A DNA stretch of 64,000 nt, taken from NCBI GenBank assembly GCA_000146465.1, contig CP001942.1, one strand, 5' to 3'. A program made the translations under genes and the position numbers. Below the pieces are notes generated by a model that saw only the letters and a list, made by a program, of their open reading frames with translations, did no database searches and had not been told where the DNA came from. Positions 17,339 to 64,000 of the stretch are shown in pieces (position 1 is the stretch's first letter; each line of letters opens with the position of its first letter).

Positions 17339-19228
17339 ATGTTTGTGGATCGGAAACACCCTCAGGGAATGAATGAGACTATGAAAAGCGCAAAGTTTGA
17401 TCTAGACACAGGAGACAGCGATAGCCATAACTACATCCACAACGAGTCGGAAAGCTACTCTGCCGAGGATGGAAAGTACGAGGTAGGAAAGGAGGAAAAC
17501 AACGATCCATTTGAGAAGCTGAAGAGTAGTGCAGCAGACACTCTTCATCAGAGGACAGGATGGATTTTCCTGATAGGTGTTTTTCTATCCATACTTGCTG
17601 TGTGCTGCTGGAATTTTCACATGGATGTCAAAGATAGGAATGAAGCGACTTTCAGCGTCCGAGTGAGAGATGTTCTACTTGTATGTTCTGCAGGAGTGTT
17701 TTTCTTCATTGCCTTAAACTTCATTATCTTTAAGACGAGTTTTCTAGGAATGAAGAGGTCCAACAGCCTAAACACATTCTTCTACTACACCAACGAGCTC
17801 TCGGAACATATTTCTGTGGGAACCATCTTGATCTTTGGATTTTTCTTTGTGTTTCTGAAGGACTTGGACTGTTGTGTATATAACAAGCAAAGCCTTGATC
17901 TATTTCTCACTGATGTGTTTGGCAGTCTGTTGATAGCAATCTTTATGCTCGGGGTTGTAAGGGTATTCCATCGGGCCATATCGATGAATTTCAACTACTC
18001 TGTGTACATTAAGAGGATTAGAAGGGTGCTCCTGGAGGATGCATTTATCAACCTTCTTGGAGTCCTGGACACCAAGAGGAACAGGGGGATTGAGAGGTCC
18101 AGGCTGAACAAGTCCCAAGAGATTATGTACAGGAGCGATGCGATTTCGTCGATAAACGAATATATGGAGGACTTATATGGGTACAACGAGCCTACCAACG
18201 AGCTGGACCTTCCCAGAAAGAGAGTTCTTCTTAAGGAGTTTCAAAGACTCATGCGGCGTTCAAGCGGGATTCGTGGAGATGTCATGAAAATGTCCCAAAG
18301 ACTCAAGAACAGGGCAGGGAGTAAGGCAAGCAAGATAGTTGGAAAGGATGGAAGTATTGGTCCTATGTCTGATCTGTCGCTATATTTCCACAACCCAGAG
18401 GTGTTCAAATTCCTGATGAAGGAAATCGGTGTTGAAGAAGGGTTTAAATTCAGCAAAAGCAGCCTGGCGGACTTTATTGAAAGAACATACCGGGAGAGAC
18501 ACTTCTTGAAAGAGAATCTCGAGCACATGAATTCAGCCATAGACAAGGTTGCATTTGGCCTCAAAATCATAATAGGAGGACTTATTATAGCAATGATGTA
18601 CATCAGAGCAGGAGGAGAAGGAGTTACAACCATCGGAGTGATTTCTGCATTGTTTGGTACACAGTTTATATCCAACTCGTTTTCCGAGAGTGTGATTGGT
18701 AGCATAATCTTTCTATTTTTCATTCATCCGTATGACATTGGAGATCGGATCTTTGTGACTCTAGATGGAGAGGAAGAGAACTTGGTTGTATCGGAGCTGA
18801 ATGTGTTTTCGACTGTATTCTACAGATGGGATGGGGTCTACATAACAATCCTCAATACAGTGTTGGCACAGAAAGCAATCAGAAATCTTCGAAGGAGTGG
18901 AATCATGGCCGAGTCCCATAAGATTCAAGTAAACAGCAGGACTAACCAGAAGAAGTTGATCCGTTTGAAGGAACTCATAGAGGACTTTGTCAAGAGCAAC
19001 CCAGAAGACTATACAGAGTACATAATGCTAAATCATGAATTTATTTCGGATGCATCGAAGCTGCACATGAAAGTCTATATGCAGTATAAGAGCAGCTGGC
19101 AGAACTTCGAGTTATACCTCCGAAGAAAAACCAAGTTCCTGTCTTTTTTGAATAGAGCCCTCCAGGAGTTAGAGATAGAGTATATTCTGCCACCAATGCC
19201 GATTTCCTTAAGGAATGTCCAGAACTAG
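17339..19228 (+). CDS. MscS-like mechanosensitive ion channel (eukaryotic Msy-type), paralog 1
   Basis: 629 aa. Several TM helices, then the MscS beta-domain block HPYDIGDRIFVTLDGEEENLVVSELNVFSTVFYRWDGVYITILNTVLAQKAIRNLRRS. Confidence 0.8.
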   Translation: MFVDRKHPQGMNETMKSAKFDLDTGDSDSHNYIHNESESYSAEDGKYEVGKEENNDPFEKLKSSAADTLHQRTGWIFLIGVFLSILAVCCWNFHMDVKDRNEATFSVRVRDVLLVCSAGVFFFIALNFIIFKTSFLGMKRSNSLNTFFYYTNELSEHISVGTILIFGFFFVFLKDLDCCVYNKQSLDLFLTDVFGSLLIAIFMLGVVRVFHRAISMNFNYSVYIKRIRRVLLEDAFINLLGVLDTKRNRGIERSRLNKSQEIMYRSDAISSINEYMEDLYGYNEPTNELDLPRKRVLLKEFQRLMRRSSGIRGDVMKMSQRLKNRAGSKASKIVGKDGSIGPMSDLSLYFHNPEVFKFLMKEIGVEEGFKFSKSSLADFIERTYRERHFLKENLEHMNSAIDKVAFGLKIIIGGLIIAMMYIRAGGEGVTTIGVISALFGTQFISNSFSESVIGSIIFLFFIHPYDIGDRIFVTLDGEEENLVVSELNVFSTVFYRWDGVYITILNTVLAQKAIRNLRRSGIMAESHKIQVNSRTNQKKLIRLKELIEDFVKSNPEDYTEYIMLNHEFISDASKLHMKVYMQYKSSWQNFELYLRRKTKFLSFLNRALQELEIEYILPPMPISLRNVQN

Positions 19229-19295: not shown

Positions 19296-20447
19296 ATGGG
19301 AAGCCAGCTTTGGGCTGAGAGGTATAGGCCTAGGAAATACACAGAGCTGGTGTTCAAAGGAGATGTCCATCACGATGCCCTAAAATGGCTAAAGGACTAT
19401 CCAGAGCATGGAAAGATCCTCTTGCTGCGGGGACCCTCAGGGACTGGCAAGACTTCATTGGCATATGTTCTTTCATCTGCACTTGGATTCGATCTTGTTG
19501 AGTTCAATGCAGACAACGATCCTGACTGGATGGATAGGATGCTTAACAGCAACAGGATTATTAATGGAAGAAAAAATATAATTCTTGTCGATGAAATAGA
19601 CGGGAACCCATTTCTAAATGTGGATAAGCTGATATCTTCTCCGAAGTTAGTTTGTCCTCTAGTGATGACGTCTAACGAAATGTGCCTGAAAGATGTTTAC
19701 ACTGTGGAGATTCAAAGACCAGGATTTGAAGAAGTCAGAAGAGGGATAGAAAAGATTTGTAAGGAACAAGGAATCAGTATTGAGAACTCCATTCTGTCGC
19801 AGATGGCCTCAGAATCGGGAGGAGATCTTAGAACAATAATAAATCATCTTCAAATACATGGGAAAAGGCTAAAAAGCTCAGGCTATCTAGGAATTCACAA
19901 AACAAATACAATAAGCCAACACAAAGCGGCAGAGCTTATTCTGTCAAGAAACATAGGATGGAAAGCGTATGAAGATATATATTCCAGTAGTGTCCTGTCT
20001 CTATGCCACAGTTCGTTCCCATACAATACAAATATGATGAAATGCATTGCAGATATAAGTGAGGCCACGTCAATTGCGGACCTCCTCCCTGAGGAATTCA
20101 AGTATATAGCCCTGTCGAAGTACGGCACCTGTAATAACAGAAAGCCCAACATACAGGGAATAGAGTATTATAATGAGCCTAGAAGCGATCTTCTAAAAGA
20201 GACGGTCCTTCCATTTTTCAAAAAATATGATCTGAATAGGTCGGACAGAAGAAGTCTAAACCATCTTAAGGAAATAGTGAAGACATATGGCATCAAAGAT
20301 GTGAAGCTGAAGGAAGAGAACTTAACAGAAGTGGGTGGAAGTAAGGCTTCTAAGAAATTCAAATTTAAATACAAGTCCGGGTGTTCGGTGGCATTTCGAA
20401 GGGACGTAACAATGGACGATATCATGGATTGGTTTTTTAAGTCTTAG
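19296..20447 (+). CDS. Replication factor C large-subunit-like AAA+ ATPase (RFC1/Ctf18/Elg1 family)
   Basis: 383 aa. WAERYRPRKYTELV (RFC box II-like), Walker A LLLRGPSGTGKTSLA followed by FNADND (the RFC1-type ELNASD), and Walker B ILVDEIDG. Confidence 0.7.
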   Translation: MGSQLWAERYRPRKYTELVFKGDVHHDALKWLKDYPEHGKILLLRGPSGTGKTSLAYVLSSALGFDLVEFNADNDPDWMDRMLNSNRIINGRKNIILVDEIDGNPFLNVDKLISSPKLVCPLVMTSNEMCLKDVYTVEIQRPGFEEVRRGIEKICKEQGISIENSILSQMASESGGDLRTIINHLQIHGKRLKSSGYLGIHKTNTISQHKAAELILSRNIGWKAYEDIYSSSVLSLCHSSFPYNTNMMKCIADISEATSIADLLPEEFKYIALSKYGTCNNRKPNIQGIEYYNEPRSDLLKETVLPFFKKYDLNRSDRRSLNHLKEIVKTYGIKDVKLKEENLTEVGGSKASKKFKFKYKSGCSVAFRRDVTMDDIMDWFFKS

Positions 20448-21582
20448 ATTCGTCTAGGTCTTTTTCTAGCAAGGAATAAATGAGTTCTGTAAGTTCTTTT
20501 GGATTTATAACAGATTTATGGTACAAGACAAGAAGTAAGTCTACTACTGAGGGACTTTTCCTTTCTTGCCTAACAAACTTAGCTATATCATCCATGAATA
20601 CGTTTCCATGTAGAGTAAGGGTGTTCCACTTTTTCATCAAAGCAAGGGAATTCTCTGGAAGTTCTGACTCTGATTCTATGTTTCTATTTATCAGGGTTGA
20701 AAGGGTATCTATCGACCAGACTCCGGCGGCAAAACTCTCAGATGTTTTCTGGTCCGTTGGATCTTTTCTTGATTCTAGTCCTTTTCTTCTATATCTTCTG
20801 GAAAGATAAGTCAAGGTTCTAGAGGCTTCCGGGGCTTCTGCCTCGGATTTCTTAAGGTAAAGAGACTTTTCTTTCTGTATGCATTCATATCCAGAGTGTA
20901 TGCGGCTAATATGGAACACCAGAGAGTCAATAGATTCAAACTCCTTAATACAGAAAACACAACAAAAACCATACACACAATACTTTTCCCCTTCAATTTC
21001 AAAATTGAGAACATGTTTAGACCGTCTTCCTACATCGCTTGAGAAGCCCCAATAATAATGAAGAAGACCTTTGCTCTTACTTTTGATATTTATGGACTTG
21101 AGTACTAGATCGTGAGAAGGTTCCCTGTCCATTCTGTAGAATCCGTCCTCATGGAATAGCTCGATCCTATACAAAGGCACTTTGGAATCTCTAAGAGAAT
21201 GGCATCCACTAAAATGAGCGTGATACACAGAAGCTTTTCCATCCATATCTACAATAAACATATAGAGAACAGTCTTATCATGGCACGAAAAGTTTGTCAT
21301 TCTAGTTTTCTGTACTTCTCTAATAGAATAGCAATCGCCTGCTTCCAGGGCAGACGAAAAGTTTATTCCAGATCTAACTCCATCATTCCAATGGTATCCT
21401 CTCACTAGTAGGGTAGCAGGTTGTGGCTTCCCAACTCTGGGCACAATGGATACCATATAGGACACCGAACATTCCTTTGTATTGTTCAGGAAAACCTTCC
21501 TTTCCTTTTCCATTTTTCTTGGGTGCCTCAATAGAACAGGCGGAAACAAACCAAGACTATTCTCCACAAGCCAATTAATCAT
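20437..21582 (-). CDS. Suz12/EMF2-like protein: C2H2 zinc finger followed by a VEFS-box-like C-terminus (candidate Polycomb PRC2-type subunit)
   Basis: 381 aa. C2H2 finger CVFCIKEFESIDSLVFHISRIH. The C-terminal block LALMKKWNTLTLHGNVFMDDIAKFVRQ...VDLLLVLYHKSVINPKELTELIYSL matches the VEFS-box consensus (MKLWNLHVMKHGFIAD...FMLHL...). Domain order ZnF then VEFS is as in Suz12. The 3' end overlaps the RFC-like gene stop by 11 bp (convergent). Confidence 0.45.
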   Translation of the reverse strand: MINWLVENSLGLFPPVLLRHPRKMEKERKVFLNNTKECSVSYMVSIVPRVGKPQPATLLVRGYHWNDGVRSGINFSSALEAGDCYSIREVQKTRMTNFSCHDKTVLYMFIVDMDGKASVYHAHFSGCHSLRDSKVPLYRIELFHEDGFYRMDREPSHDLVLKSINIKSKSKGLLHYYWGFSSDVGRRSKHVLNFEIEGEKYCVYGFCCVFCIKEFESIDSLVFHISRIHSGYECIQKEKSLYLKKSEAEAPEASRTLTYLSRRYRRKGLESRKDPTDQKTSESFAAGVWSIDTLSTLINRNIESESELPENSLALMKKWNTLTLHGNVFMDDIAKFVRQERKSPSVVDLLLVLYHKSVINPKELTELIYSLLEKDLDESKT

Positions 21583-21653: not shown

Positions 21654-22784
21654 TCAATGGGGAGAAGATTCAGGAGCTATCGAGAAGATACTCTCGTTGT
21701 CGGAGTAATTTAACGATGTAGGATTTTCAATGTTTTTGTTGTAGAAGTGGCTGTAGACGCTCTGTGCATTCTCAAGTTTTTTTACAAGCCCTATGTTTTC
21801 AGTCTCAAGATCTTTCAATCTGGACTCTTTTGCTTTCAATTCCTCCTTCATCTTTTTCATTTTCTCTTCCATTCCCTTCATCTTCTTCTTGAGGTCCTCG
21901 ATCTCAGCTTTGTACTTCTTGTTGTTCAACCGAAGATCCTTTGACGCTTCTTCATTTCCATTTATTGTGCTCTTCATCTGTGCCATATCATCGTTGTACT
22001 TTCTTATTATCCCATTTGCTGTGTTTAGTTCCTCTTTGAGAGTTTTGTTTTCGTCCTCTATCTCTTGGGCTCTTTCAACAAGCCCTGAGTTCTTCACATC
22101 CTGAAGTTTAAGCTTATCCAGATCATACTGTAGTCTCCCGTTTTCCTTTTCTAAATCATAAACTCTATTGCTCAATCGGTCAACCTCTTCCTTCCGGGAG
22201 TTGTTATTTTCGCTCAGCATCTCATTCTCCTTATATAGCTTATCTATTTTCTTTTGTGAAGCAGAAACTTCCTCTTCCAGGTATCTGATCCTGTCTCTTA
22301 CCTCCTTCTCTCCATTCTTGCACTTGTCTCGAAGCATTCCATTCTCTTTAATAAGCCTCACGTTGTCAGATTCCATTCGGCCTATCATGTCTCCAAGATA
22401 CATCTTGTAATGTGTTTCGTCGGGCTTTGAAAACTTCAATTCTAGCCTGATTATGTTCCTAAAATCATCCTTCTCAACAAACAGAAACTTGTTGGTTTCC
22501 TTCGAAAACAATCCCCTCAGCTTTCCACTGTGCAGGCTATGGAACATTTTCACCAAAATCGATACAAACCTTTCGTAGTCAACAATAATGTCTTGCTCTC
22601 TCTTCATTACATAGAAGTCTCCTGGAGATATTGTGCTGAAGTAGAATGTAAAGATATCTCTTGTATCTATGAGTCGGATCTCAATCTCATCGTCCGAGCG
22701 CACAATGTCACACTTCATCTGCCAAGGTATTTCTTCGTTTGGGCACGATATAGGAATCTTCCCAGTGAAAATCGACTCCCTCAT
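21654..22784 (-). CDS. Coiled-coil protein with an N-terminal head domain of about 150 aa that faintly resembles the XRCC4/SAS-6 superfamily head (PISA-like block)
   Basis: 376 aa. The head contains IEIRLIDTRDIFTFYFSTISPGDFYVMKREQDIIVDYERFVSILVKMF, which is patterned like the SAS-6 PISA motif. About 220 aa of continuous heptad coiled coil follow (LEKENGRLQYDLDKLK...). Confidence 0.3.
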   Translation of the reverse strand: MRESIFTGKIPISCPNEEIPWQMKCDIVRSDDEIEIRLIDTRDIFTFYFSTISPGDFYVMKREQDIIVDYERFVSILVKMFHSLHSGKLRGLFSKETNKFLFVEKDDFRNIIRLELKFSKPDETHYKMYLGDMIGRMESDNVRLIKENGMLRDKCKNGEKEVRDRIRYLEEEVSASQKKIDKLYKENEMLSENNNSRKEEVDRLSNRVYDLEKENGRLQYDLDKLKLQDVKNSGLVERAQEIEDENKTLKEELNTANGIIRKYNDDMAQMKSTINGNEEASKDLRLNNKKYKAEIEDLKKKMKGMEEKMKKMKEELKAKESRLKDLETENIGLVKKLENAQSVYSHFYNKNIENPTSLNYSDNESIFSIAPESSPH

Positions 22785-22849
22785 TTCGGGGTTGGGTTTA
22801 GGTATTCAGTAATATAAGTCTGTTCATCCAAGAACATGTTCTCTACCCC

Positions 22850-24613
22850 ATGGCAGACATCAAGAAGATACACAGACTGCAAGACATCAGCTCTGCTATG
22901 TCATGTCTTGGCATCGATATGCCACAGATAGTAGCAATAGGATCACAAAGCAGTGGAAAGAGTAGCGTGCTAGAGCAGATAATAAAAAGAGAGGTTCTTC
23001 CTCGAGGCACAAACCTAGTGACAAGATGTCCAATTGTCCTACATCTTAGAAGATGTGAAGATGGTGCAGAAGGCGTGGTATTTGATCATCTTGCAGGGTC
23101 TGTTGACTTTGGCACTGCAGGCTCTATAATTATAAAAAGAATGGAAGAAATATGCGGAATCAACAAAGGAATTAGCAGTAGACCAATAACTGCCTTTGTT
23201 AATCTAAAGGACACGCTTGAGATGACTGTGGTCGACCTTCCGGGCCTTATAAAGGTCCCTATTGGAGAGCAGCCCGAAGACATCGAGATACAGGTTGAGG
23301 ACATGGTTCTTGGCTACGCAATGAAGGACTCGTCGATAATCCTAGCTCTTGTAAATGCCAATGCAGACATCGCAACAAATGAAGCACTTAAGATAGCTAA
23401 AAAGGCGGATCCTCAGTTGAAAAGGACTCTGGGTGTGGTTACAAAAATCGATCTAATGGATGCAGGAACAGATTGCATGAACATCCTTTCGAATAGGAAT
23501 CCAAAACTGGCTCTTGGATATATTGGTGTGATAAATAGAGGGCAGCAGGATATTGCCAAGGGTGTATCTATAAACGAGGCTATTCATAAGGAGTCGAAGT
23601 ACTTCAAGGAAAATCCCTTATATGGCAAAATATATCCCAATATAGGGTCGGAATACCTTATAAAGAGACTAAACGAAATATTCTACGAGAAGGCAATGGA
23701 ATCAGTCCCGGGAATTAAGACAGCTGTGAAAAACCAGTTGAACGACAAGGCAAAAAGACTCCATGAAATAGAATCAGGGAATTCTGTGAAAAGGGAGCAG
23801 TCTCTTGTGCTAGATTACCACCAAGCCATTCTGGAAATATTCAGGCACGTTAGGCCGAATGTTGGAGTGTTTTCCAAGAGTTCCTCGGGCTTTTTGAATG
23901 AGCTCAAGAAGGCATTTGAAGAAGATGAGTTTCTTGCAATCTTCGAGGACCTACCCTCCAGGCTTAGCAGATCTTCATACATATTTATATCGGAGGCTGT
24001 TTTCTATGACGTGGTGAGAGAAAACATAAAGAAAATGGCTACAGAATATCTGGAGAAAGTCGATAATATTGTGAAGCTACTCATTAAAGAGATCTGGTCA
24101 ATATCAAGTCCAAGCTTTGCAGTACTCTCCAAGAAACTTAATGGTGTGGTGAGTGAATGCATAGAAGAGCAAAGATGCAAACTAGCCGATAGCATACACT
24201 TATACTCGTCGATCCAGTCGTCGTACATCAATGTAAACCACCCAGACTTTGACAGGCCGAGAGCCCTGAGCCTGATTCTTCGAAAAATACCAAGAAGCGA
24301 ATCCGGTCTTTTGGGGATGTTCAACTCCAAAGAAGTGTCTTTTGAAGACAAGGCCTTTGAAGTGAGACTTATAAAGGAGCTAGCCGGATCCTATCTTAGA
24401 ATTGTAAACAAGGAAATGAGAAATTATGTCCTAAAAGCAATTCATTACTACTTATGTGAGTACATGGATTCTAGGCTTCCTAGCGTTCTTACAGAGCTGG
24501 AAATTGAGGAGACCGAGATGGCCGAGTGTCCTGAGATTGTTGGAGAAAGAAATAGCCTTGCTAAAGACATAGAGATATTGAAGAATGCACTTTCCAGCCT
24601 AAGCGGATTCTGA
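22850..24613 (+). CDS. Dynamin-family large GTPase (Vps1/Dnm1-like)
   Basis: 587 aa. G1 IVAIGSQSSGKSSVLEQI, G3 DLPG, G4 TKIDLMD. The C-terminal GED-like helix region ends with the stop at 24613. Confidence 0.9.
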   Translation: MADIKKIHRLQDISSAMSCLGIDMPQIVAIGSQSSGKSSVLEQIIKREVLPRGTNLVTRCPIVLHLRRCEDGAEGVVFDHLAGSVDFGTAGSIIIKRMEEICGINKGISSRPITAFVNLKDTLEMTVVDLPGLIKVPIGEQPEDIEIQVEDMVLGYAMKDSSIILALVNANADIATNEALKIAKKADPQLKRTLGVVTKIDLMDAGTDCMNILSNRNPKLALGYIGVINRGQQDIAKGVSINEAIHKESKYFKENPLYGKIYPNIGSEYLIKRLNEIFYEKAMESVPGIKTAVKNQLNDKAKRLHEIESGNSVKREQSLVLDYHQAILEIFRHVRPNVGVFSKSSSGFLNELKKAFEEDEFLAIFEDLPSRLSRSSYIFISEAVFYDVVRENIKKMATEYLEKVDNIVKLLIKEIWSISSPSFAVLSKKLNGVVSECIEEQRCKLADSIHLYSSIQSSYINVNHPDFDRPRALSLILRKIPRSESGLLGMFNSKEVSFEDKAFEVRLIKELAGSYLRIVNKEMRNYVLKAIHYYLCEYMDSRLPSVLTELEIEETEMAECPEIVGERNSLAKDIEILKNALSSLSGF

Positions 24614-27823: not shown

Positions 27824-29545
27824 ATGGGATGGTATCCAAATCTTCTTTTGCTCTCGGCTTTGATTGTCTTACTTCCAGGATACATCTTCCTTGGGAGACT
27901 AGGAAAGTGCATACTCTATCTCCCTCTCAATAGCATTTCGTTTGTGATCTACTTTAGAATCAGAGCATCCATTGGGAAGAGACATCTCAGTGTTGTTGTA
28001 AATGTGCTCTCAAGACTTGTGAAGTTTGGAGTTGGCGTCCTTTTGTCATACACAACATTGTCTCTGGGAGCAGCCAGATATACCCATGGGCCTTTGATTT
28101 TGGGAGCTCTTCTCCTATCAATAGACCTTGTCAGAGCATATCTCTACGAGTCATCGAAGAAGAGCTTTGAAAACAAGATACTCACGGGAAACTTCATGGA
28201 CATTCTCAAGCTGGAGAAATACATTATATATTCTGTAGAAGGCCCTCAGACAGTGGACCTAAAGAGGAACTTGTCTGTCGACGAATATTTCGATAGGGGC
28301 CGTCCAAAACCTGTAGATGCCAATGAGCTTTTTGACTTATGGAACGACCAAAATCCTTACGAAGACCATGTTTCAGACAGCGATTTCACAGAAGGAAATG
28401 AAAGACTGAAGAAAAGGACCAGAAGAGAAAAGATAAAGATTGATCCAAAGACATACGAGTTCATCGAAGAAAAAAGGAGGTTGTCCTGGAACCTTCTGAA
28501 TATACAGAAAGTAGTCCTTACTCCGGAAGAGAAAATGAGAGAGAGGTTATATGCAATGAATCCATTGGAAATGATACCTAGTCCAGACTGCCAACCAGAT
28601 GTTGAGAGGAAAGACGTTGATGGAGAAGAATGGAAGTTTCTTGAACTAGACAAGAAGAGGGCTAAGAAGATGCCTGCAAGGCCGGGGTTGATAACAGTCG
28701 AGTCTCTCAGCGTGCATTTTGGAGAGAGCCATGCAAAGGAAGCGTATTCGTTGATTGCTTTCAAAAGAGGAGAAAGGATTAATCATGAAATCTTCAAGGA
28801 AAATGCTAGGCAAATAAATGTAGAAAGAAACAACCTATACAGAACGATCATGGACAACAAGAAACTACTGAGGGTTATATGGTTTATTCTGGCACTCCTC
28901 GAAAGTATAGTTGGATACTTGATCACTGCGGTATTCTTCAGGACCAAGCCATTGCTGTTGGAGCTGATCTTTCCGATGGTAGTTGTTCCGGCCCTTCCGA
29001 TGATCAAGATGACGGTGGAGTCATTTCTGTTTATTATATACACCCACCCATACGATCCCGGAGACAGGGTTCATATAGACGGAGAAAATATGGTTGTCCG
29101 GAGGATCTCTTTATTTAGTACTGTGCTTGAGAGTTGGGACGGAATGGAAATAATAATTCCAAATATTGTTATAAGGAAGAAAGCGATTTTGAACATAAGA
29201 AGATCGAAACAGCAGCAATGGAAGCTCTCGATGCTTATATCATCAAAGACGTCGGAAAGAAAGATCGAATTGTTGAGAGAGGCAATCAAGAGGTTTGTAA
29301 GGAGCGACAAGTCCTATATTACTGTAAGTGTAAGCATCTCGGAAATAGTCGATTGTAATCACTTGAGGCTAACGGTGATTGTAAAGCATTCCATAAACTT
29401 TCAAAGTGGATTCTTTATGTGGACAAGCCATACCAAGTTTGTAAACATGCTTCTAGCTATTCTGTGCAAACTTGACATCAGGTTCATTCCACTCACCAAA
29501 GAGATTATGAATCTAGGGCCTACCTATGAACAAGGCATCTCATAA
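27824..29545 (+). CDS. MscS-like mechanosensitive ion channel, paralog 2
   Basis: 573 aa. TM helices, then HPYDPGDRVHIDGENMVVRRISLFSTVLESWDGMEIIIPNIVIRKKAILNIRRS. This block is clearly paralogous to the 17339..19228 gene. Confidence 0.8.
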   Translation: MGWYPNLLLLSALIVLLPGYIFLGRLGKCILYLPLNSISFVIYFRIRASIGKRHLSVVVNVLSRLVKFGVGVLLSYTTLSLGAARYTHGPLILGALLLSIDLVRAYLYESSKKSFENKILTGNFMDILKLEKYIIYSVEGPQTVDLKRNLSVDEYFDRGRPKPVDANELFDLWNDQNPYEDHVSDSDFTEGNERLKKRTRREKIKIDPKTYEFIEEKRRLSWNLLNIQKVVLTPEEKMRERLYAMNPLEMIPSPDCQPDVERKDVDGEEWKFLELDKKRAKKMPARPGLITVESLSVHFGESHAKEAYSLIAFKRGERINHEIFKENARQINVERNNLYRTIMDNKKLLRVIWFILALLESIVGYLITAVFFRTKPLLLELIFPMVVVPALPMIKMTVESFLFIIYTHPYDPGDRVHIDGENMVVRRISLFSTVLESWDGMEIIIPNIVIRKKAILNIRRSKQQQWKLSMLISSKTSERKIELLREAIKRFVRSDKSYITVSVSISEIVDCNHLRLTVIVKHSINFQSGFFMWTSHTKFVNMLLAILCKLDIRFIPLTKEIMNLGPTYEQGIS

Positions 29546-51509: not shown

Positions 51510-52043
51510 TCAGGGAGACTTCAAAAAATAGAAGGCTGAGTTGACATAGAGCTCGTAGAGGATGTCAAAGATGTCCAGGTCCTGGGTGTCTGTCTCAGAA
51601 AACCCAAGCACAGCACACCTCAGGTCTCCCTTCCACCGCACCCCGCTCCTCTCCACATCTCTCCTCCCAAGATATGCCTTCTTCGTCAGCGCAGTGTTCT
51701 GCACAAACTCGTTCTCGTTGAGCTCCATGTGCACCCTGTATCCATATTCAGGGAGGTAGTCGACCTCGAGAGATCTCAGCCATCGCGTGTCTGGCCTGCC
51801 GAGTGCATCCACAGGGAGCAGTGCCGCCCCGGGCCTGTAGTTCGCAAGTGCGCGGGCCCAGTAGCACTCAACTGCCCTGCGGACAAGCCCGTCCTTCTTT
51901 CCAAGCAGAGGCTTGATGTTCCTGTGGTGCTCCAGCTTGCACTCAAAGTCCCTCCTTGCAAACGCCTCGTGCTCCCCGTCAATGTCGGACTGGATCTCGT
52001 CCAGAAGCCTACAGATCTCTGCATCCTGCATCCAGGGGGGCAT
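51510..52043 (-). CDS. Nucleosome-assembly-protein (NAP/SET)-family-like ORF, short and possibly truncated. It lies in the GC-rich block and its 5' end overlaps the ABC-transporter 3' end by about 35 bp.
   Basis: 177 aa. ECYWARALANYRPGAALLPVDALGRPDTRWLRSLEVDYLPEYGYRVHMELNENEFVQNTALTKKAYL mirrors the NAP core pattern (FWxTAxxNH ... YLxxIxV ... GFxLxFxFxxNxYFxNxxLTKxYxL). It is only about half the length of typical NAP proteins. Confidence 0.45.
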   Translation of the reverse strand: MPPWMQDAEICRLLDEIQSDIDGEHEAFARRDFECKLEHHRNIKPLLGKKDGLVRRAVECYWARALANYRPGAALLPVDALGRPDTRWLRSLEVDYLPEYGYRVHMELNENEFVQNTALTKKAYLGRRDVERSGVRWKGDLRCAVLGFSETDTQDLDIFDILYELYVNSAFYFLKSP

Positions 52044-53853
52044 GGCGGCTTTGCAATGGGTCCCCTGCAGCGGGTTTGAAGTTTCCTAGCCCCGTCTTCA
52101 TGCGCCAGTACTCCCCGCGGAGCTCCATCAGCTCGCCATGGCTTCCAGACTCGACTATGCGGCCGGCGTCCATCAGGATGATCCTGTCCATGTGCTCTGC
52201 CATCCACAGATCGTGGAAGACCATGACAACAGTCTTTCCGGGAAGGCCCATCAGCAGGTCGAAGATGGCCCTTTCCCCACTTGCATCCAGCCTCGACGTG
52301 ACCTCGTCGAGAAGCATCAGCGGCTTGTTCTGGAGCAGGCATCTTGCAATCGAGACCATCTGGACCTCTCCGCCGCTCAGCATCTTCATGGCCGAGTGGA
52401 GTCCTCGCCTCACAAGCAGGGGCCCGAGGCCTGCACTCCTGGATGCCTCGAGGATCTTCTGGAGGCTGGTTGCTGGGAGGCCGTATGAAATGTTGTGGAA
52501 GACAGTCTCGTCGAAGAAAGGCATGTCCTGAAGAATGCAGGCGATGGAGGCGCGGAGGGCAGCAGGGGAGGTGTTGCGGAGCTCGAGGCCGTTGACGCGG
52601 ATGGAGCCTGTGTAGGAGTGGAGCATCGGGATCAGCCTTAGGATGGAGCTCTTGCCGCTTCCAGGCCTTCCGATGATTCCGACACGCTCGCCACGGGCAA
52701 TCTTGAAGGACAGGTTTCTGAGGATGGGAGGGGCGTTTGGATATCCGAAGCTGACGCCCTCGAACTCGATGGCTGGAGGGGCTTGGGACTTGGGGGATGA
52801 CAGAGAGGGACACGGGAAGCCTGTGGCAAGGGAGGAGGCGGGACTCTGTCTGGCCATCCTCTCCAAGTGGTCGTGGAGGATCAGCAGATCTTCGCAGTCT
52901 ATCAGCCAGAACCCCATGTCCCTTGCAATGACACCCAGTGTCCACATGGACAGGTCGATGGAGAATACAAAGGAAAAGAGAGTTGCCAGGTCTCCAATGG
53001 TCATTGTGCCGGAAAAGGCATCTGGAGTGCCCTTGAGGACGGAGTAGACAAAGAGGATTGTGAAGAGTATCCTCTGGCCAAAGTTGATTATGGCCACACA
53101 TCCCTTGTCGGAGAGCTTGAGAGTCCACATTGCCCTTATGATCTCCTGGAGGCTGTCGACCTCGGCCTGCTCGCAGCAGCATGTCTTGACAAGATCCATG
53201 TTTGAGACACACTCGTGGATCTTCTTGGAGACCGAGTTGTCTGCATAGTTGATTCTCTCCTTGTACCAGGAACGGATCCTCAGGGTCACAAAGGTGTAGA
53301 CAGCATAGATGGAGATTGTGAAGAGGATGGGGAGAAGGTATCTGAGGCCAAACATCCTATAGACCTCTCTGAGGAGAAGAACAAGGTTGAAGAATGCAGG
53401 GACGGCGACGGTGAGGATCTTTGTAAGGACCTTGCAGATCTTCTTGTTTCCCCTCTCGACAATCCTGTTGAGGCTTGTGGGCTTGATTTCGCAAGCATGG
53501 GAGGCGTGGATTGCAAGGTAAAGAATGCGGGAGGTTATGTCCTCGACAATCCTGTTTGTTATGATGGAGAAGAGGACGACCTTGGACTCGATGAAGAGAG
53601 AGGAGAGGGTTCTGAGGACGAGGAAGGCTGTTGCCTTGCGGAAGATCAAGGACATGCCTGGATTGTCGGAGTCCTTGATGTGCTTTATGGTGTCGATGAT
53701 AGAGCCTCTCTTCTTGATGGAAGCAACGTCAAGCCACTTTCCAAGGACGATGCAGAGGGCCATTACAACGACTATTGCAACCTCGTGGGGAGATGTGGGC
53801 TTTAGCATGGATGCAAGTCTGCTCCATATTGCTCGACGGTCTATTTTCTTCAT
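52009..53853 (-). CDS. ABC half-transporter (TMD-NBD; ABCB/Atm1-Mdl-like)
   Basis: 614 aa. N-terminal 6-TM domain. Walker A GIIGRPGSGKSSIL, ABC signature LSGGEVQMVSIARCL, Walker B LMLLDEVTSRLD. Confidence 0.85.
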   Translation of the reverse strand: MKKIDRRAIWSRLASMLKPTSPHEVAIVVVMALCIVLGKWLDVASIKKRGSIIDTIKHIKDSDNPGMSLIFRKATAFLVLRTLSSLFIESKVVLFSIITNRIVEDITSRILYLAIHASHACEIKPTSLNRIVERGNKKICKVLTKILTVAVPAFFNLVLLLREVYRMFGLRYLLPILFTISIYAVYTFVTLRIRSWYKERINYADNSVSKKIHECVSNMDLVKTCCCEQAEVDSLQEIIRAMWTLKLSDKGCVAIINFGQRILFTILFVYSVLKGTPDAFSGTMTIGDLATLFSFVFSIDLSMWTLGVIARDMGFWLIDCEDLLILHDHLERMARQSPASSLATGFPCPSLSSPKSQAPPAIEFEGVSFGYPNAPPILRNLSFKIARGERVGIIGRPGSGKSSILRLIPMLHSYTGSIRVNGLELRNTSPAALRASIACILQDMPFFDETVFHNISYGLPATSLQKILEASRSAGLGPLLVRRGLHSAMKMLSGGEVQMVSIARCLLQNKPLMLLDEVTSRLDASGERAIFDLLMGLPGKTVVMVFHDLWMAEHMDRIILMDAGRIVESGSHGELMELRGEYWRMKTGLGNFKPAAGDPLQSRHAPLDAGCRDL

Positions 53854-53916
53854 TAGCTTTGGAAAGGGGAGGGGGTTTTATTGTCTGAGATGGCGGCAAG
53901 AAGCGTTTTTAATAAA

Positions 53917-55296
53917 CTACTTGTAGATGGGATGGGCGTCTACGAGGGCAAGGACCCTTTTCTTCAGATCGGCGGCAGCGGGGCTGGAGGACAAGAGGGC
54001 AGACGCTGTTTTCTGGAGCTCTGCCTTTGGGATGCTCTTCCCTGGGAATGTCTCTCTGCAGAGCTCGACGACGCCGTTGATTATGGCGGCAAGCTCTCTC
54101 ATGTCATGTGGGCCAAGGCCCCTGGCAGTGACGGCATATGTGCCTATGCGGATTCCGGATGGGTTGAGGGGGCTTGAGTCACCGGCAATGGTGTTTCTGT
54201 TGAGGCTGATTCCCAGGATGTCGCACACATGCTCGACAGCGGTGGCGTTGACGTCCTTGTTCTTGAGGTCTACAAGGAACATGTGGTTGTCTGTTCCGCC
54301 TGTGGGGATGTCGAAGCCCAGGGACAGCAGATGGGCGGAGAGTGCTTTAGAGTTTTCGACGACACACCTGGCGTACTCTGCAAACTCGGGGGTTGCGGCG
54401 TGGAGAAGAGCCGAAGCGATTCCAGCGATTGTGTGGTTGTGGGGGCCGCCCTGGAGCATGGGGAAGACGGCGAAGTTGATCTTTGTGTCCAGGTCGATGG
54501 AGACGGCGTTCTTTGTAACTGTTTTCCTGTAGAAGATGAGGGCGCCACGGGGGCCTCGAAGGCCTTTCTGGGTTGTTGTCATGACCACGTCGCAGTGGTT
54601 GAAGGGGCTGTTCATCAGGCCACATGCAACCAGAGGAGAGATGTGGGAGATGTCGGCAAAGAGAAAGGCGTTGTTGGAGGCAGCCAGGGAGGAAAGCCTC
54701 TTGTAGTCGATGTCTCTGGAGTATGCGCTGTACCCGCAGATCAGGATGTGAGGCTGGAAGTTGTTGAAGGCATCCTCGAGGGCATTGTAGTCGATGAAGC
54801 CGTCGGGGCCTATTCTGTAGGCTCTTGAGTCGAAGTAAACGCTTGTGGCCGATATCTTCCTGGTCTTTGTCCTGTATCCGTGTGTCAGGTGGCCTCCAGA
54901 TGGAAGATCGAGGCCCATGATTCTTCCTCCGGGAGGAACGAGGGCTGTATAGACGGCAAAGTTGGCTGGGCTCCCCGAGTATGGTTGGACATTGACGCCC
55001 CAGACTGCTGGGTCGAGGCCGAAGAGCGAGAGAGCCCTCTTCTGGCAAAGGGTCTCGATCTTGTCTATCCATTGTGTTCCTCCGTAGTACCGTTCTCCCA
55101 CTCTCCCCTCGGAATACTTGTTGGTAAGGACCGACCCGCAGGCCTCCATCACGCTTTGGTGGACGTAGTTTTCACTGGCTATCAGATTTATTGTCTTTTG
55201 CTGCCTTGCAGCCTCTCCGCAGATCAGGGCATGGAGCTCTGGATCCACTGTTTCCATCGGGCCTGTCCAGAAGCCCTCTCCTCTTCCCTTTGTCAT
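53917..55296 (-). CDS. SHMT: Serine hydroxymethyltransferase
   Basis: 459 aa. LIASENYVHQSVMEACGSVLTNKYSEGRVGERYYGG and the PLP-lysine region TTTTQKGLRGPRG. Confidence 0.95.
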   Translation of the reverse strand: MTKGRGEGFWTGPMETVDPELHALICGEAARQQKTINLIASENYVHQSVMEACGSVLTNKYSEGRVGERYYGGTQWIDKIETLCQKRALSLFGLDPAVWGVNVQPYSGSPANFAVYTALVPPGGRIMGLDLPSGGHLTHGYRTKTRKISATSVYFDSRAYRIGPDGFIDYNALEDAFNNFQPHILICGYSAYSRDIDYKRLSSLAASNNAFLFADISHISPLVACGLMNSPFNHCDVVMTTTQKGLRGPRGALIFYRKTVTKNAVSIDLDTKINFAVFPMLQGGPHNHTIAGIASALLHAATPEFAEYARCVVENSKALSAHLLSLGFDIPTGGTDNHMFLVDLKNKDVNATAVEHVCDILGISLNRNTIAGDSSPLNPSGIRIGTYAVTARGLGPHDMRELAAIINGVVELCRETFPGKSIPKAELQKTASALLSSSPAAADLKKRVLALVDAHPIYK

Positions 55297-55342
55297 GGCT
55301 TGTCCTTCCCCAAAACTTAAATACTTGTTGGAGGGAAGATTT

Positions 55343-56871
<1,529 letters not shown>

Positions 56872-56914
56872 GGATTATTAAATAGTATTAATAAAAAAGC
56901 GAAAACAAAAGGGA

Positions 56915-59503
56915 ATGAAATGGATTGAATTGGCAATTGGATTGATACCCATGATTGAGGGTAGGCAGGAAGAGGATTCTTCGTACAGGCGAAGACTGGA
57001 GAAGATTGTGATTCCGGAGCATTACGACCTGCATGTAAAAGTGATGGACGTGGGGTTCTGCGGAAAGGTAGGGATCTCTGTGAGTATTTTGGAACCTGTA
57101 AGGGAGATAGTGATGAACGCAAAAGAACTTGAGATTCAGGAGGCGACGATTCGGGTTGGAGACACCGAGGTTCCTGGAGAGATAGTGATGGGGGAGAAGG
57201 AGAAAGAGTACGAGATTGTGCGGATTGTGTTTGAAAAGGAGATTGAGGCGGGGAAGGGATATATCACGGCGAAGTTCTGTGGAGACTACAACAACGGACT
57301 TGTAGGGTTCTACAAGAGTGGGGAAGAGAAGGAGATATATAGTACGCACTTTGAGCCGACGGATGCACGGAGGGTGTTTCCATGTTTTGACCAGCCGGAC
57401 ATGAAGGCAACATTCCAGATTTCGATTGATGCGCCCTCGAGGCTTGTTGTTCTTTCGAACAGCCCCGAAGAGGAAGAGAAGCGGGAGGAGTATGGAGACA
57501 GGGCGATTTCGTATTTTGAGAAGACAAGCAAGATGTCGACGTACCTTGTTGCATTTGTGATTGGAGACCTTAATTACATTGAGGACTGGAGCAAGGGGGG
57601 AGTGCGACTTCGAGTGTATGGACAAGGAGAGGAAGTGGAGTGGGGAAGATACGGACTGGAGGTTGCAAAGAGATGCATTGACTACTTTTCTGAGTACTTT
57701 GGGATTGGATATGAGTTTCCACGGAAGGAGAGTGCAAAGGTGGACATGGTAGGGATTCCGAGCTTTGGAAGTGGAGCAATGGAGAACTGGGGGCTGATTA
57801 CGTTCCGACGGGAGAGTCTTCTGTATGTTGCAGGGAAGAGCAGTGTGGAAGACAAGAAGAATGTGGCGGAGACAGTGTGCCACGAGCTAGCACACATGTG
57901 GTTTGGGAACCTTGTGACGATGGAGTGGTGGGACGACCTATGGCTGAACGAGGGGTTTGCAACATGGATGTCGTACAAGGGGATGGAGAACATCGGGGAT
58001 GTTGTGGACTGGGATGTGTGGGGAGAATTTTTGCTCTGGGATGTGATCCGAGGAATGCTTGATGATGGGCTTGGAAAGAGCCACAAGATCCAAATGGCTG
58101 TTGAGAATGCAGGGGAGATTGGAGAGATTTTTGACACGATAAGCTACAGCAAGGGGTCGAGTGTGATCAGGATGATTGAGAGATATGTGGGGGAGTCTGT
58201 ATTTATGCTGGGGATCCGGCGATACATAAGAGAGCATATGTATGGGAATGTGAATGGAGAGAGTCTGTGGAAGGCGATTGGAAAGGAGTATGGAAAGGAT
58301 ATTTTGCCGATGGTTGAGGGATGGATTTCGCAGGCGGGGTATCCTATGGTAGAAGTGTCTGAACGTGAGTCTTCACTTATGCTGAAGCAGTCGCGGTATT
58401 CGATGATAGGAAAGGGGGATTCGAGTGTATGGACGGTGCCTGTTGTGATAGAATGGGAAGGAGGAGAGAAGGAGAGTATTTCGTTTTCTGGGAAGGAGAT
58501 GGAGATTCCTCGGAAGAAGGAGGGATACAAGATGAATGCGGAGTATGGAGGGTTTTACCGAGTGAAGTACGGACTTGATGGGCTTAAGCGTCTTGAGAAG
58601 AGGATTGGGGAGATGAGCAGCGAGGACCGAGTGAACATGATTGAAGATGTGTTTGGGGTTGGGTTTGGGCTGTATGGAGGACTAAAGGAAGGACTTCGAA
58701 AGGTTGGAGAGTATTACTCTGAGACGTACCATGTTGGACGAAGTGCCATTGAGAAGCTTCTCCGGATCCGAAGTGTGTTCTATGACGACTCGGAGGTTGT
58801 TTCTCTTGTGGAGAAGAAGATTATTGGGCTAATTGAAAGGAGGATTTCTTCTGTGGATGTTTGGAAGAGGGAAGGATCAGTTGAGGAGATCAGCATGGAC
58901 AAGTATGTACTGTCGGTGGGGATTGAGGTTGGCAGCAAGGTGGCAAAGGAGAAGGTTATGGAGATGTGGAATGAGCATCTTAGAAGCGGAAAGGAGCTTG
59001 GAGAGTTCCGAAGGATTGTGTACGAAGGAGTTGTTGACGACAATCTGGAGTACATGATGGAGAAGTACTGGAAGGGAGACACGCCTGGGATGCGACGGGA
59101 GGTGATGTTTGGATTCGGAGGGATCCAGAAGCAAGAGAACTTTGAGAAAATATTGTCTTCGCTTGGGAAGTTTAATGTGGAGGACATTGGAGTGGTGATA
59201 GCGGTGATCTGCCGAGGAAACAAGTTCCGGGACGCAATGGTTGAATATGTTGTGAGCCACGGGGAGGAGCTGTGTTCGATGGTGCATGATAACGGGATGT
59301 TGTATAACATAATCATTATGTCTCTGCGGCACGTGAGTGGAGAGGCGATGGTGTCTCGAGTGGTTTCGTTCCTGTCTGGAATCAAGCATCCTGGAAGCCA
59401 GCTGAACATTGAGAAGGTGCAGGACGAGATTGAGTGGAGACGAAGAATGAAAGGAATCCGAGAGGAGATTCTCTCTGGGCTTCGAGAAGAAGCATGGGAA
59501 TAA
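56915..59503 (+). CDS. M1-family zinc aminopeptidase (aminopeptidase N / glutamyl aminopeptidase-like)
   Basis: 862 aa. GAMENWGLITFRE exopeptidase motif and zinc-binding HELAHMWFGNLVTMEWWDDLWLNEGFATW (HExxH-18-E). The coding strand is strongly purine-rich. Confidence 0.95.
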   Translation: MKWIELAIGLIPMIEGRQEEDSSYRRRLEKIVIPEHYDLHVKVMDVGFCGKVGISVSILEPVREIVMNAKELEIQEATIRVGDTEVPGEIVMGEKEKEYEIVRIVFEKEIEAGKGYITAKFCGDYNNGLVGFYKSGEEKEIYSTHFEPTDARRVFPCFDQPDMKATFQISIDAPSRLVVLSNSPEEEEKREEYGDRAISYFEKTSKMSTYLVAFVIGDLNYIEDWSKGGVRLRVYGQGEEVEWGRYGLEVAKRCIDYFSEYFGIGYEFPRKESAKVDMVGIPSFGSGAMENWGLITFRRESLLYVAGKSSVEDKKNVAETVCHELAHMWFGNLVTMEWWDDLWLNEGFATWMSYKGMENIGDVVDWDVWGEFLLWDVIRGMLDDGLGKSHKIQMAVENAGEIGEIFDTISYSKGSSVIRMIERYVGESVFMLGIRRYIREHMYGNVNGESLWKAIGKEYGKDILPMVEGWISQAGYPMVEVSERESSLMLKQSRYSMIGKGDSSVWTVPVVIEWEGGEKESISFSGKEMEIPRKKEGYKMNAEYGGFYRVKYGLDGLKRLEKRIGEMSSEDRVNMIEDVFGVGFGLYGGLKEGLRKVGEYYSETYHVGRSAIEKLLRIRSVFYDDSEVVSLVEKKIIGLIERRISSVDVWKREGSVEEISMDKYVLSVGIEVGSKVAKEKVMEMWNEHLRSGKELGEFRRIVYEGVVDDNLEYMMEKYWKGDTPGMRREVMFGFGGIQKQENFEKILSSLGKFNVEDIGVVIAVICRGNKFRDAMVEYVVSHGEELCSMVHDNGMLYNIIIMSLRHVSGEAMVSRVVSFLSGIKHPGSQLNIEKVQDEIEWRRRMKGIREEILSGLREEAWE

Positions 59504-59889
59504 ACAGAGCATTCTTTAGTGAAAGTATTTAATGTCTTGTCTGATTAAGAGGTTTTGGGGCCCCTTCTATTGTTTCCGGGATGTGGAGTAGGGCCAGGGC
59601 CATTGTATGGTCTGTGCCGATGGGCCTTTGAGTGTTTCTTTACTCATCATCATCACCGTTTTCTCCATTAGTACCGCAGGAGGGATCTCCCAGTCCTCCG
59701 GGATTTCCCGATCCTCCACCTCCATTTCCTTGTCCTTCTACGTTACCAGAAGACGAAGACGATCCGGTCTCGGCAAGAATTCCTGTGAGGAGTGAGAGAG
59801 AGAAGAAAAGAAAAGCCTTGGAGTTCATTGTAGGGGTGAGCGGGGAAGTTCCTTATGTACTTGAGGATTTAAGGAGAGGAGCAAGTTAA

Positions 59890-61481: not shown

Positions 61482-61509
61482 GTATTTGAGAGATTGGGGG
61501 GAATTTTTT
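61482..61509 (+). other. Internal transcribed spacer (very short; no GTTT-repeat array)
   Basis: It lies between the SSU 3' end (GGATCA) and the first LSU-conserved block. Boundaries are approximate to within about 15 nt. Confidence 0.5.

Positions 61510-64000
<2,491 letters not shown>

What the first reader, a model, noticed from the sequence alone, without database searches (positions are those of the whole stretch)
21654..22784. Coiled-coil protein whose head domain resembles the SAS-6/XRCC4 superfamily (PISA-like block)
Residues about 60-110 (IEIRLIDTRDIFTFYFSTISPGDFYVMKREQDIIVDYERFVSILVKMF) resemble the SAS-6 PISA motif pattern ([48 protein letters not shown]). A 200-aa coiled coil follows, which is the head-plus-stalk architecture of SAS-6, XRCC4 and CCDC61. 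Microsporidia lack centrioles, so a SAS-6-like protein would be unexpected. An XRCC4/XLF-like repair factor or a spindle-pole-plaque scaffold are alternatives.
Basis: inference. Interest (0 to 1): 0.5.

Follow-up and report, generated by a model that had tools for sequence, protein, structure and literature searches.

The report
Microsporidian SAS-6 gene, already known
This gene is a genuine but compact copy of SAS-6, the protein that builds the hub of centrioles, kept under strong selection in a parasite (Encephalitozoon intestinalis) that has no centrioles; the oddity is real but was already reported for microsporidia, so the finding is correct rather than new.

Summary
The 376-aa ORF at 21654-22784 (minus strand) exists. 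It is 100% identical to Eint_011130 of Encephalitozoon intestinalis ATCC 50506. Pfam SAS-6_N matches at E=3.2e-20 (73 bits, cutoff 25). A profile of the head hits zebrafish SAS-6 in the PDB at 2e-12. The AlphaFold head model (pLDDT 86) has only SAS-6/SAS6L heads among its top 50 Foldseek hits; no XRCC4, XLF or CCDC61 appears there. The model shows seven strands plus a helix-turn-helix, then one 220-residue helix (about 33 nm) and a 34-residue disordered tail. Phe108 sits at the tip of the beta6-beta7 hairpin and aligns with the Phe that drives head-to-head oligomerisation (zebrafish F131, Chlamydomonas F145, Drosophila F143). It is invariant in 41 microsporidian orthologs. The gene is syntenic in E. 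cuniculi and E. hellem and under strong purifying selection. It is not new: several databases already name the orthologs SAS-6, de Leon et al. 2013 cite earlier work for SAS-6 in E. cuniculi, and a 2019 paper is titled as identifying and localising SAS-6 in Nosema bombycis. What it does without centrioles is still unsettled. One detail was wrong: the PISA block is residues 34-81, not 60-110.

The parts
21654..22784 (-). Complete SAS-6 ortholog gene (376 aa plus stop), identical to Eint_011130 of Encephalitozoon intestinalis ATCC 50506
   Evidence: ORF. 100% identity over 100% coverage to P0001. Pfam SAS-6_N at E=3.2e-20.
22419..22784 (-). N-terminal globular head, residues 1-122: seven beta-strands plus a helix-turn-helix (helices 54-63 and 70-86)
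   Evidence: AlphaFold2 models (head pLDDT mostly 87-93). Foldseek best hits are SAS-6 heads, 4ckn_B at E=4.3e-8 and TM 0.77, 2y3w_B at TM 0.78. The fold matches the description of the SAS-6 head in PMC3939493.
22542..22685 (-).
   Evidence: Located. Aligned to the PISA regions of zebrafish, Chlamydomonas, Drosophila and human SAS-6.
22461..22463 (-). Codon of Phe108, at the tip of the beta6-beta7 hairpin; equivalent of the head-to-head dimerisation residue (zebrafish F131, Chlamydomonas F145, Drosophila F143)
   Evidence: Invariant in 41 microsporidian sequences. It aligns with the F of zebrafish 'NAFKHL', which is D in the F131D construct 2y3w. It aligns with the F of Chlamydomonas 'NDFKQL', and with the D of the Drosophila F143D construct 5al7. 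It lies in the loop between strands 99-105 and 110-117.
21759..22418 (-). Stalk, residues 123-342: one continuous predicted alpha-helix of 220 residues (about 33 nm if a coiled coil)
   Evidence: DSSP on the full-length model gives H123-342. No proline in residues 122-353. Many sub-threshold coiled-coil Pfam matches. The membrane-proximal part (123-160) and distal part (321-350) are better conserved (63% and 62% mean identity) than the middle (37%).
21738..21788 (-). Conserved distal motif LVKKLENAQSVYSHFYN (residues 333-349) at the stalk/tail junction, conserved in all microsporidian orthologs aligned here
   Evidence: L333, L337, E338, N339, Q341, V343, Y344 and F347 are at least 90% conserved, and H346 is invariant in 41 sequences. 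Function unknown.
21657..21758 (-). Short disordered C-terminal tail (residues 343-376) ending in the conserved PES(S/P)P motif
   Evidence: pLDDT below 50 for 343-372. P371 is invariant; E372 and P375 are at least 90% conserved. pN/pS is 0.05 in this tail among Encephalitozoon species.

Best explanation
The gene encodes the microsporidian ortholog of the centriole cartwheel protein SAS-6, in a compact form of 376 aa against about 600 aa in typical SAS-6. Shown here: it has the SAS-6 head fold, the PISA motif, the conserved hairpin-tip phenylalanine (F108), a 220-residue helical stalk and a short tail. It is conserved in length and sequence in all microsporidian lineages recovered by the homolog search, syntenic within Encephalitozoon, and under strong purifying selection. 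Inferred mechanism: two chains pair through a parallel coiled coil along the stalk. Heads of neighbouring dimers then bind by inserting F108 into the hydrophobic pocket formed by the helix-turn-helix, giving curved higher-order oligomers (rings or spirals) as in canonical SAS-6. Because microsporidia build no centrioles or flagella (established knowledge), the oligomer most likely acts as a scaffold or duplication-licensing element. The probable site is the nuclear-envelope spindle plaque, the acentriolar microtubule-organising centre. The conserved distal LENAQ-VY-HFY motif and PESPP tail would serve as attachment or regulatory sites. Both the site of action and the role of those motifs are inference, not shown.
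For: Family membership: Pfam SAS-6_N at 73.1 bits against cutoff 25, full model coverage. The head profile hits PDB SAS-6 of zebrafish 2.2e-12, Chlamydomonas 1.6e-9, Drosophila 4.8e-8, human 7.7e-8 and Leishmania 1.4e-6. The AF2 head model has pLDDT 85.9, and all top 50 Foldseek PDB hits are SAS-6/SAS6L heads with TM up to 0.78. Architecture: seven strands plus a helix-turn-helix, then helix 123-342. [quoted passage not shown] Oligomerisation interface: F108 is invariant in 41 orthologs. It aligns to the position mutated to break head-to-head contacts in the crystallisation constructs 2y3w (F131D) and 5al7 (F143D). Function retained: orthologs of 361-385 aa occur in Encephalitozoon, Ordospora, Nosema, Vairimorpha, Hamiltosporidium, Dictyocoela, Astathelohania and Enteropsectra. 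Gene order is the same in E. cuniculi and E. hellem. pN is 0.06-0.08 against pS 0.64-0.77, and the head is the most constrained part. Literature: SAS-6 in E. cuniculi was placed in the SAS-6 rather than the SAS6L subfamily (PMC3697468). [quoted passage not shown] 2019, cited in PMC9272817).
Against: No oligomer or dimer was modelled or measured here. The pocket that should receive F108 was judged only from aligned conserved aromatics (F57, Y70, F73), not from coordinates. The protein is much shorter than canonical SAS-6. It also lacks a significant match to the SAS-6 C-terminal coiled-coil family (PF22216, 16.3 bits against cutoff 27), so the partner-binding regions of canonical SAS-6 may be gone. 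Microsporidia have no centrioles, so the canonical function cannot apply as such. Localisation to the spindle plaque is my inference. I could not read Dai et al. 2019 and do not know what localisation they reported.
Confidence: 0.85

Rival explanations
1. It is an XRCC4/XLF/PAXX-type DNA double-strand-break repair scaffold. These proteins have the same head-plus-stalk superfamily architecture and bridge DNA ends with ligase IV.
For: The general architecture is shared by the superfamily (established knowledge). One PDB hit involves an XRCC4 fusion construct (7m3p_A), but at E=0.78 and only over stalk residues 152-214.
Against: No XRCC4 or XLF family appears among the 25 best Pfam families, while SAS-6_N scores 73 bits. 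All top 50 Foldseek hits are SAS-6/SAS6L. The SAS-6-specific PISA motif and hairpin-tip Phe are present and invariant.
Confidence: 0.02
2. It is a SAS6L-type or CCDC61-type paralog rather than an ortholog of SAS-6. That would make it a member of a related family with a non-cartwheel role, such as the apical/conoid fibres of Toxoplasma.
For: The Pfam SAS-6_N domain is shared by SAS-6 and SAS6L (PMC3697468). Toxoplasma conoid-fibre chains (9y9z) appear among the structural hits at E about 4e-7.
Against: [quoted passage not shown] The head profile scores bona fide SAS-6 far better (2e-12 to 1e-6) than the Toxoplasma SAS6L-like chain 9y9z_20 (1.4e-3). The published phylogeny lists the E. cuniculi gene among SAS-6 genes, and that protein is 83% identical and syntenic to this one.
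Confidence: 0.04
3. It is a SAS-6 ortholog that has lost ring-forming ability. It would survive as a plain coiled-coil dimer with a new role unrelated to microtubule organisation, for example in polar-tube or spore morphogenesis or nuclear architecture.
For: No centriole exists to be templated. The protein is truncated relative to canonical SAS-6 and has lineage-specific C-terminal motifs. No sequence evidence obtained here ties it to spindle plaques.
Against: The residue whose only known role is head-to-head oligomerisation (F108) is invariant in 41 divergent orthologs, and the head is the most constrained part of the gene. That is hard to explain if oligomerisation were dispensable.
Confidence: 0.12

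Closest known systems
SAS-6 (Bld12p / HsSAS-6 / DSas-6), the centriole cartwheel hub-and-spoke protein
   Same: Head domain with the PISA motif, above the Pfam threshold. Seven-stranded barrel plus helix-turn-helix fold. Conserved Phe at the beta6-beta7 hairpin tip (F108, equivalent to Dr F131, Cr F145 and Dm F143). A long helical stalk directly after the head, then a disordered C-terminal tail.
   Different: 376 aa instead of about 600 aa. The stalk is about 220 residues instead of about 300 (for the canonical figures). The head is compact, with shorter loops: the alignments to zebrafish and Chlamydomonas need insertions in the canonical proteins. It has its own conserved LENAQ-VY-HFY and PESPP C-terminal motifs. 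The host organism builds no centrioles, basal bodies or flagella.
E. cuniculi SAS-6 and Nosema bombycis SAS-6 (NbSAS-6, Dai et al. 2019)
   Same: Direct orthologs. E. cuniculi P0003 is 83% identical, 376 aa, with the same neighbouring genes. N. bombycis P0018 is 53% identical and 367 aa. These are the previously reported microsporidian SAS-6 genes.
   Different: A different species only. The E. intestinalis copy is labelled 'uncharacterized protein' in NCBI, though UniRef names it 'Spindle as...' (the name is cut off in the output; the orthologs' entries read 'Spindle assembly abnormal protein 6').
SAS6L (SAS-6-like, Toxoplasma conoid / trypanosome)
   Same: Shares the head domain, in both Pfam family and fold.
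   Different: SAS6L lacks the coiled-coil tail, which this protein has. The profile score to the Toxoplasma chain is about nine orders of magnitude weaker than to zebrafish SAS-6.
XRCC4 / XLF / CCDC61 (other members of the XRCC4 structural superfamily)
   Same: The general architecture of an N-terminal beta-rich head followed by a dimerising coiled-coil stalk (established knowledge).
   Different: No significant sequence or top-ranked structural match. The PISA motif and hairpin-tip Phe are SAS-6 features.

Membership tests
SAS-6 | N-terminal head domain matching the SAS-6_N profile (PF16531) above the curated threshold | tested here: met
   73.1 bits against cutoff 25, E=3.2e-20, residues 6-118 covering model positions 3-135 of 135. 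All 44 homologs carry PF16531.
SAS-6 | PISA motif (about 50 aa conserved block within the head) | tested here: met
   Residues 34-81 align without gaps to the PISA regions of zebrafish, Chlamydomonas, Drosophila and human SAS-6.
SAS-6 | [quoted passage not shown] | tested here: met
   The AF2 model has strands 3-13, 22-29, 34-40, 47-52, 90-94, 99-105 and 110-117, and helices 54-63 and 70-86. Foldseek TM is up to 0.78 to SAS-6 crystal structures, and the top 50 hits are all SAS-6/SAS6L. The fold definition comes from PMC3939493. This is a predicted, not experimental, structure.
SAS-6 | Conserved hydrophobic residue (Phe) at the tip of the beta6-beta7 hairpin that mediates head-to-head dimerisation | tested here: met
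   F108 lies in the 106-109 loop between the last two strands. It aligns to Dr F131, Cr F145 and the Dm F143D site and is invariant in 41 orthologs.
SAS-6 | Hydrophobic pocket (helix-turn-helix plus hairpin base) that receives the Phe of the partner head | tested here: inconclusive
   Aromatic residues in the helix-turn-helix are conserved (F57 and Y58 at least 90%, F73 invariant, F81 at least 90%). They align with the canonical DF...DF..F pattern. No coordinates or dimer model could be inspected with these tools.
SAS-6 | Long parallel coiled-coil stalk directly following the head, forming the homodimer (cartwheel spoke) | tested here: met
   A single 220-residue helix, 123-342, with pLDDT above 90 over residues 141-240. 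It is proline-free and rich in charged residues and Leu. Dimerisation itself was not tested.
SAS-6 | Assembly into ninefold rings, or spirals, of nine homodimers | not testable with these tools
   This needs multimer modelling or EM/AUC of recombinant protein.
SAS-6 | Orthology: branches in the SAS-6 subfamily rather than SAS6L | tested here: met
   Indirect. The published phylogeny lists the E. cuniculi gene among SAS-6 genes, and that protein is 83% identical and syntenic to this one. The profile E-values favour SAS-6 (2e-12) over a SAS6L-type chain (1.4e-3). No new tree was built here.
SAS-6 | Localisation to, and requirement for, the centriole/basal-body cartwheel | not testable with these tools
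   Microsporidia have no centrioles (established knowledge). A localisation study exists for Nosema bombycis (title only), but the paper is not held.
SAS6L | Head domain only, with no coiled-coil tail | tested here: not met
   A 220-residue helical stalk follows the head. The definition is from PMC3697468.
XRCC4 / XLF / PAXX | Significant profile or structural match to the XRCC4- or XLF-type head | tested here: not met
   Neither appears among the 25 best of 83 Pfam families at E<=10, nor among the top 50 Foldseek PDB hits. The only XRCC4-containing PDB hit is a fusion construct at E=0.78 over the stalk.

The most novel reading that the evidence does not exclude
The invariant ring-forming interface (F108) and the spoke-length stalk (about 33 nm) leave one possibility open. 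'Acentriolar' microsporidia may still assemble a SAS-6 ring or cartwheel-like hub inside the spindle plaque. That would be a cryptic remnant of the centriole that licenses duplication of the microtubule-organising centre without any microtubule triplets. It would mean SAS-6 self-assembly has a function separable from centriole building, and that loss of centrioles in this fungal-related lineage was incomplete.
Probability: 0.3. Interest if true: 0.65.

Novelty: already known. Interest (0 to 1): 0.22.

Why it matters
SAS-6 is the protein whose self-assembly sets the ninefold symmetry of centrioles, so its retention in a lineage with no centrioles or flagella and a drastically reduced genome is a real puzzle. 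Here it is kept under strong purifying selection with the oligomerisation residue intact. That suggests a centriole-independent use of SAS-6 oligomers, probably in spindle-pole organisation or duplication. The puzzle has been in the literature since about 2010 for E. cuniculi, and a Nosema study followed in 2019. This window therefore adds one more ortholog (E. intestinalis Eint_011130) and some detail: F108 conservation, stalk length, and conserved C-terminal motifs. It does not add a discovery. A practical consequence is that the NCBI label 'uncharacterized protein' for Eint_011130 could be updated to SAS-6.

Tried and rejected
1. XRCC4/XLF repair factor: rejected. There is no profile or top-ranked structural match, while SAS-6 matches are strong.
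2. SAS6L: rejected because of the long stalk and much weaker profile score.
3. SAS-6 C-terminal coiled-coil family PF22216 (16.3 bits, cutoff 27) and the PDB SAS-6 coiled-coil fragments 6ys4 and 6z26 (E=0.046 and 1.6): below threshold and in low-complexity coiled coil, so not used as evidence.
4. The many other coiled-coil Pfam hits (KASH_CCD, bZIP, Csm1_N, tropomyosin and others) are all below their cutoffs. I treat them as generic coiled-coil similarity.
5. I tried to read the primary sources. Hodges et al. 2010 (PMC2858018), Carvalho-Santos et al. 2010 (by DOI), one further review looked up by a PMC id recalled from memory, and Dai et al. 2019 (PMID 30244093) are not held. My knowledge of them is limited to how de Leon 2013 cites them and to the title of Dai 2019.
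6. Searches for 'NbSAS-6', for microsporidia + 'spindle plaque' + centriole, and for microsporidia + 'spindle pole body' + kinetochore + mitosis found nothing relevant.
7. Jukes-Cantor dS could not be computed for several comparisons because synonymous sites are saturated. I report pN and pS instead.
8. I ran no further search on a new SAS-6/SAS6L phylogeny, because the published one already covers the 83%-identical E. cuniculi ortholog.

Full report
**1. The observation**

The window has an ATG-initiated ORF of 376 codons on the minus strand at 21654-22784.

The window itself is microsporidian. It ends in a microsporidia-type SSU rRNA (60190-61484, 1113 bits) and an LSU rRNA (61594-63974). 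The ORF product is 100% identical over its full length to Eint_011130 of Encephalitozoon intestinalis ATCC 50506.

**2. What it is**

Sequence profiles:
- Pfam gives one hit above threshold, SAS-6_N (PF16531). It covers residues 6-118 and model positions 3-135 of 135, at E=3.2e-20 and 73.1 bits against a gathering score of 25.
- All other Pfam hits are generic coiled-coil families below their cutoffs.
- The single sequence finds SAS-6 heads first in the PDB.
- A 28-sequence profile of residues 1-165 finds only SAS-6-type chains. These are zebrafish 2y3v at 2.2e-12, Chlamydomonas 6zz8 at 1.6e-9, Drosophila 5al7 at 4.8e-8, human 6z4a at 7.7e-8, Leishmania 4ckp at 1.4e-6, C. elegans at about 1e-3, and a Toxoplasma conoid SAS-6_N protein at 1.4e-3.

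Predicted structure:
- An AlphaFold2 model of the head plus proximal stalk has mean pLDDT 85.9.
- Its top 50 Foldseek matches in the PDB are all SAS-6 or SAS6L heads. The best is Leishmania 4ckn_B at E=4.3e-8 and TM 0.77; zebrafish 2y3w_B has TM 0.78.
- The full-length model (pLDDT 81.3) shows seven strands (3-13, 22-29, 34-40, 47-52, 90-94, 99-105, 110-117) and a helix-turn-helix (54-63, 70-86).
- One uninterrupted helix then runs from 123 to 342, followed by a low-confidence tail from 343 to 376.
- At about 0.15 nm per residue, the 220-residue helix would make a stalk of about 33 nm.

**3. The oligomerisation residue**

In canonical SAS-6, a phenylalanine at the tip of the beta6-beta7 hairpin inserts into a conserved hydrophobic pocket of the neighbouring head. 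This residue is F257 in Leishmania and F131 in zebrafish. Head-to-head dimerisation depends on it (PMC3939493).

In the alignments here, Phe108 of the microsporidian protein ('KDDFRNII') lines up with:
- the F of zebrafish 'TNAFKHL', which reads 'TNADKHL' in the F131D construct 2y3w;
- the F of Chlamydomonas 'INDFKQL';
- the engineered D of the Drosophila F143D construct 5al7.

In the model, F108 lies in the loop between the last two strands. It is invariant in all 41 aligned microsporidian sequences, whose identity to the query goes down to 38%. Aromatic residues of the helix-turn-helix that align with the canonical DF...DF..F pattern are also conserved: F57 and Y58, Y70, the invariant F73, and F81. 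I could not inspect the pocket in three dimensions, so that feature is scored as inconclusive.

**4. Is the gene functional?**

- The search returned 44 protein clusters with E<=1e-64, nearly all 361-385 aa long. Every cluster that carries a taxon name is microsporidian: Encephalitozoon, Ordospora, Nosema, Vairimorpha, Hamiltosporidium, Dictyocoela, Astathelohania and Enteropsectra.
- In E. cuniculi (chromosome I, AL391737) and E. hellem the gene sits in the same neighbourhood. The order is Cdc48-like AAA ATPase, guanylate kinase, dynamin, SAS-6, a 375-aa unknown, an RFC/Rad17-like AAA protein, and an MscS-like channel.
- Among the three Encephalitozoon species, non-synonymous differences per site are 0.064-0.080, while synonymous differences are 0.64-0.77, which is saturated. 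pN/pS is about 0.1 overall, 0.04-0.08 in the head and 0.11-0.14 in the stalk.
- Across all 41 sequences, the head (60% mean identity), the proximal stalk (63%) and the distal stalk/motif (62%) are better conserved than the middle of the stalk (37%).
- The distal motif LVKKLENAQSVYSHFYN (H346 invariant) and the terminal PES(S/P)P (P371 invariant) are conserved in every microsporidian ortholog aligned here. They have no significant match to the canonical SAS-6 C-terminal family (PF22216, 16.3 bits against cutoff 27).

**5. How it most likely works**

Shown: a SAS-6 head with the dimerisation Phe, a long helical stalk, and strong constraint.

Inferred:
- parallel coiled-coil homodimers;
- F108-mediated head-to-head contacts giving curved oligomers;
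- action at the acentriolar spindle plaque, as a scaffold or duplication-licensing element;
- use of the lineage-specific C-terminal motifs for anchoring or regulation.

Rivals:
- An XRCC4/XLF repair factor is effectively excluded.
- SAS6L is excluded by the stalk and by the profile scores.
- A repurposed, non-oligomerising dimer is disfavoured by the invariance of F108.

**6. Comparison with what is known, and novelty**

The protein passes every defining feature of SAS-6 that could be tested here. It differs in three ways. It is compact: 376 aa with a stalk of about 220 residues, against about 600 aa with about 300 aa of coiled coil. It has its own C-terminal motifs. And it lives in an organism without centrioles.

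None of this is a new discovery:
- De Leon et al. [quoted passage not shown] 2010 among others.
- Dai et al. [quoted passage not shown]
- UniRef, NCBI and JGI already name many of the orthologs 'spindle assembly abnormal protein 6'.

**7. Verdict**

The finding is already known, so overall interest is low (0.22). The open question is whether acentriolar microsporidia still assemble a SAS-6 ring at the spindle plaque, and it is worth testing. I give that reading a probability of about 0.3 and an interest of about 0.65 if true.

Noticed in passing
window 60190-63974 (+), and the GC-rich stretch 52000-60000: A complete microsporidia-type SSU rRNA (60190-61484) and an LSU rRNA (61594-63974) lie at the end of the window. 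GC content jumps from about 0.40 to 0.50-0.55 from 52 kb onward, and many overlapping ORFs appear there on both strands. This fits the subtelomeric rDNA unit of an Encephalitozoon chromosome end.
   Followed up: partly
window 20437-21582 (-): The 381-aa ORF immediately downstream of SAS-6 has no Pfam match at E<=0.001. It is nevertheless conserved in position and size in E. cuniculi (375 aa) and E. hellem (374 aa). It contains a C2H2-like stretch, CVFCIKEFESIDSLVFHISRIH. Its function is unknown.
   Followed up: no
window 17339-19228 (+) and 27824-29545 (+): Two paralogous proteins (629 and 573 aa) with only an MscS-type mechanosensitive-channel beta-domain match (PF00924) lie about 2.4 kb and 5 kb on either side of the SAS-6 gene.
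   Followed up: no
window 22785-22849: Only 65 bp separate the SAS-6 start codon from the start codon of the divergently transcribed dynamin-family gene (22850-24613; Dynamin_N, Dynamin_M, GED). Both promoters must fit in this very short interval, which is typical of Encephalitozoon genome compaction.
   Followed up: no
P0018 (Nosema bombycis CQ1 ortholog, 367 aa): The N. bombycis ortholog of this SAS-6 is named 'Laminin subunit beta-4' in NCBI and UniRef. This looks like a misannotation caused by coiled-coil similarity. The E. intestinalis entry itself is still 'uncharacterized protein' in NCBI.
   Followed up: no
window 21657-21788 (-), residues 333-376 of the SAS-6 protein: Two C-terminal motifs are conserved in all microsporidian orthologs aligned here: LENAQ-VY-HFY at the end of the stalk, and a terminal PES(S/P)P that contains a minimal Ser-Pro site. 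They are as conserved as the head but match nothing in canonical SAS-6. They are candidate partner-binding or phospho-regulatory sites.
   Followed up: partly
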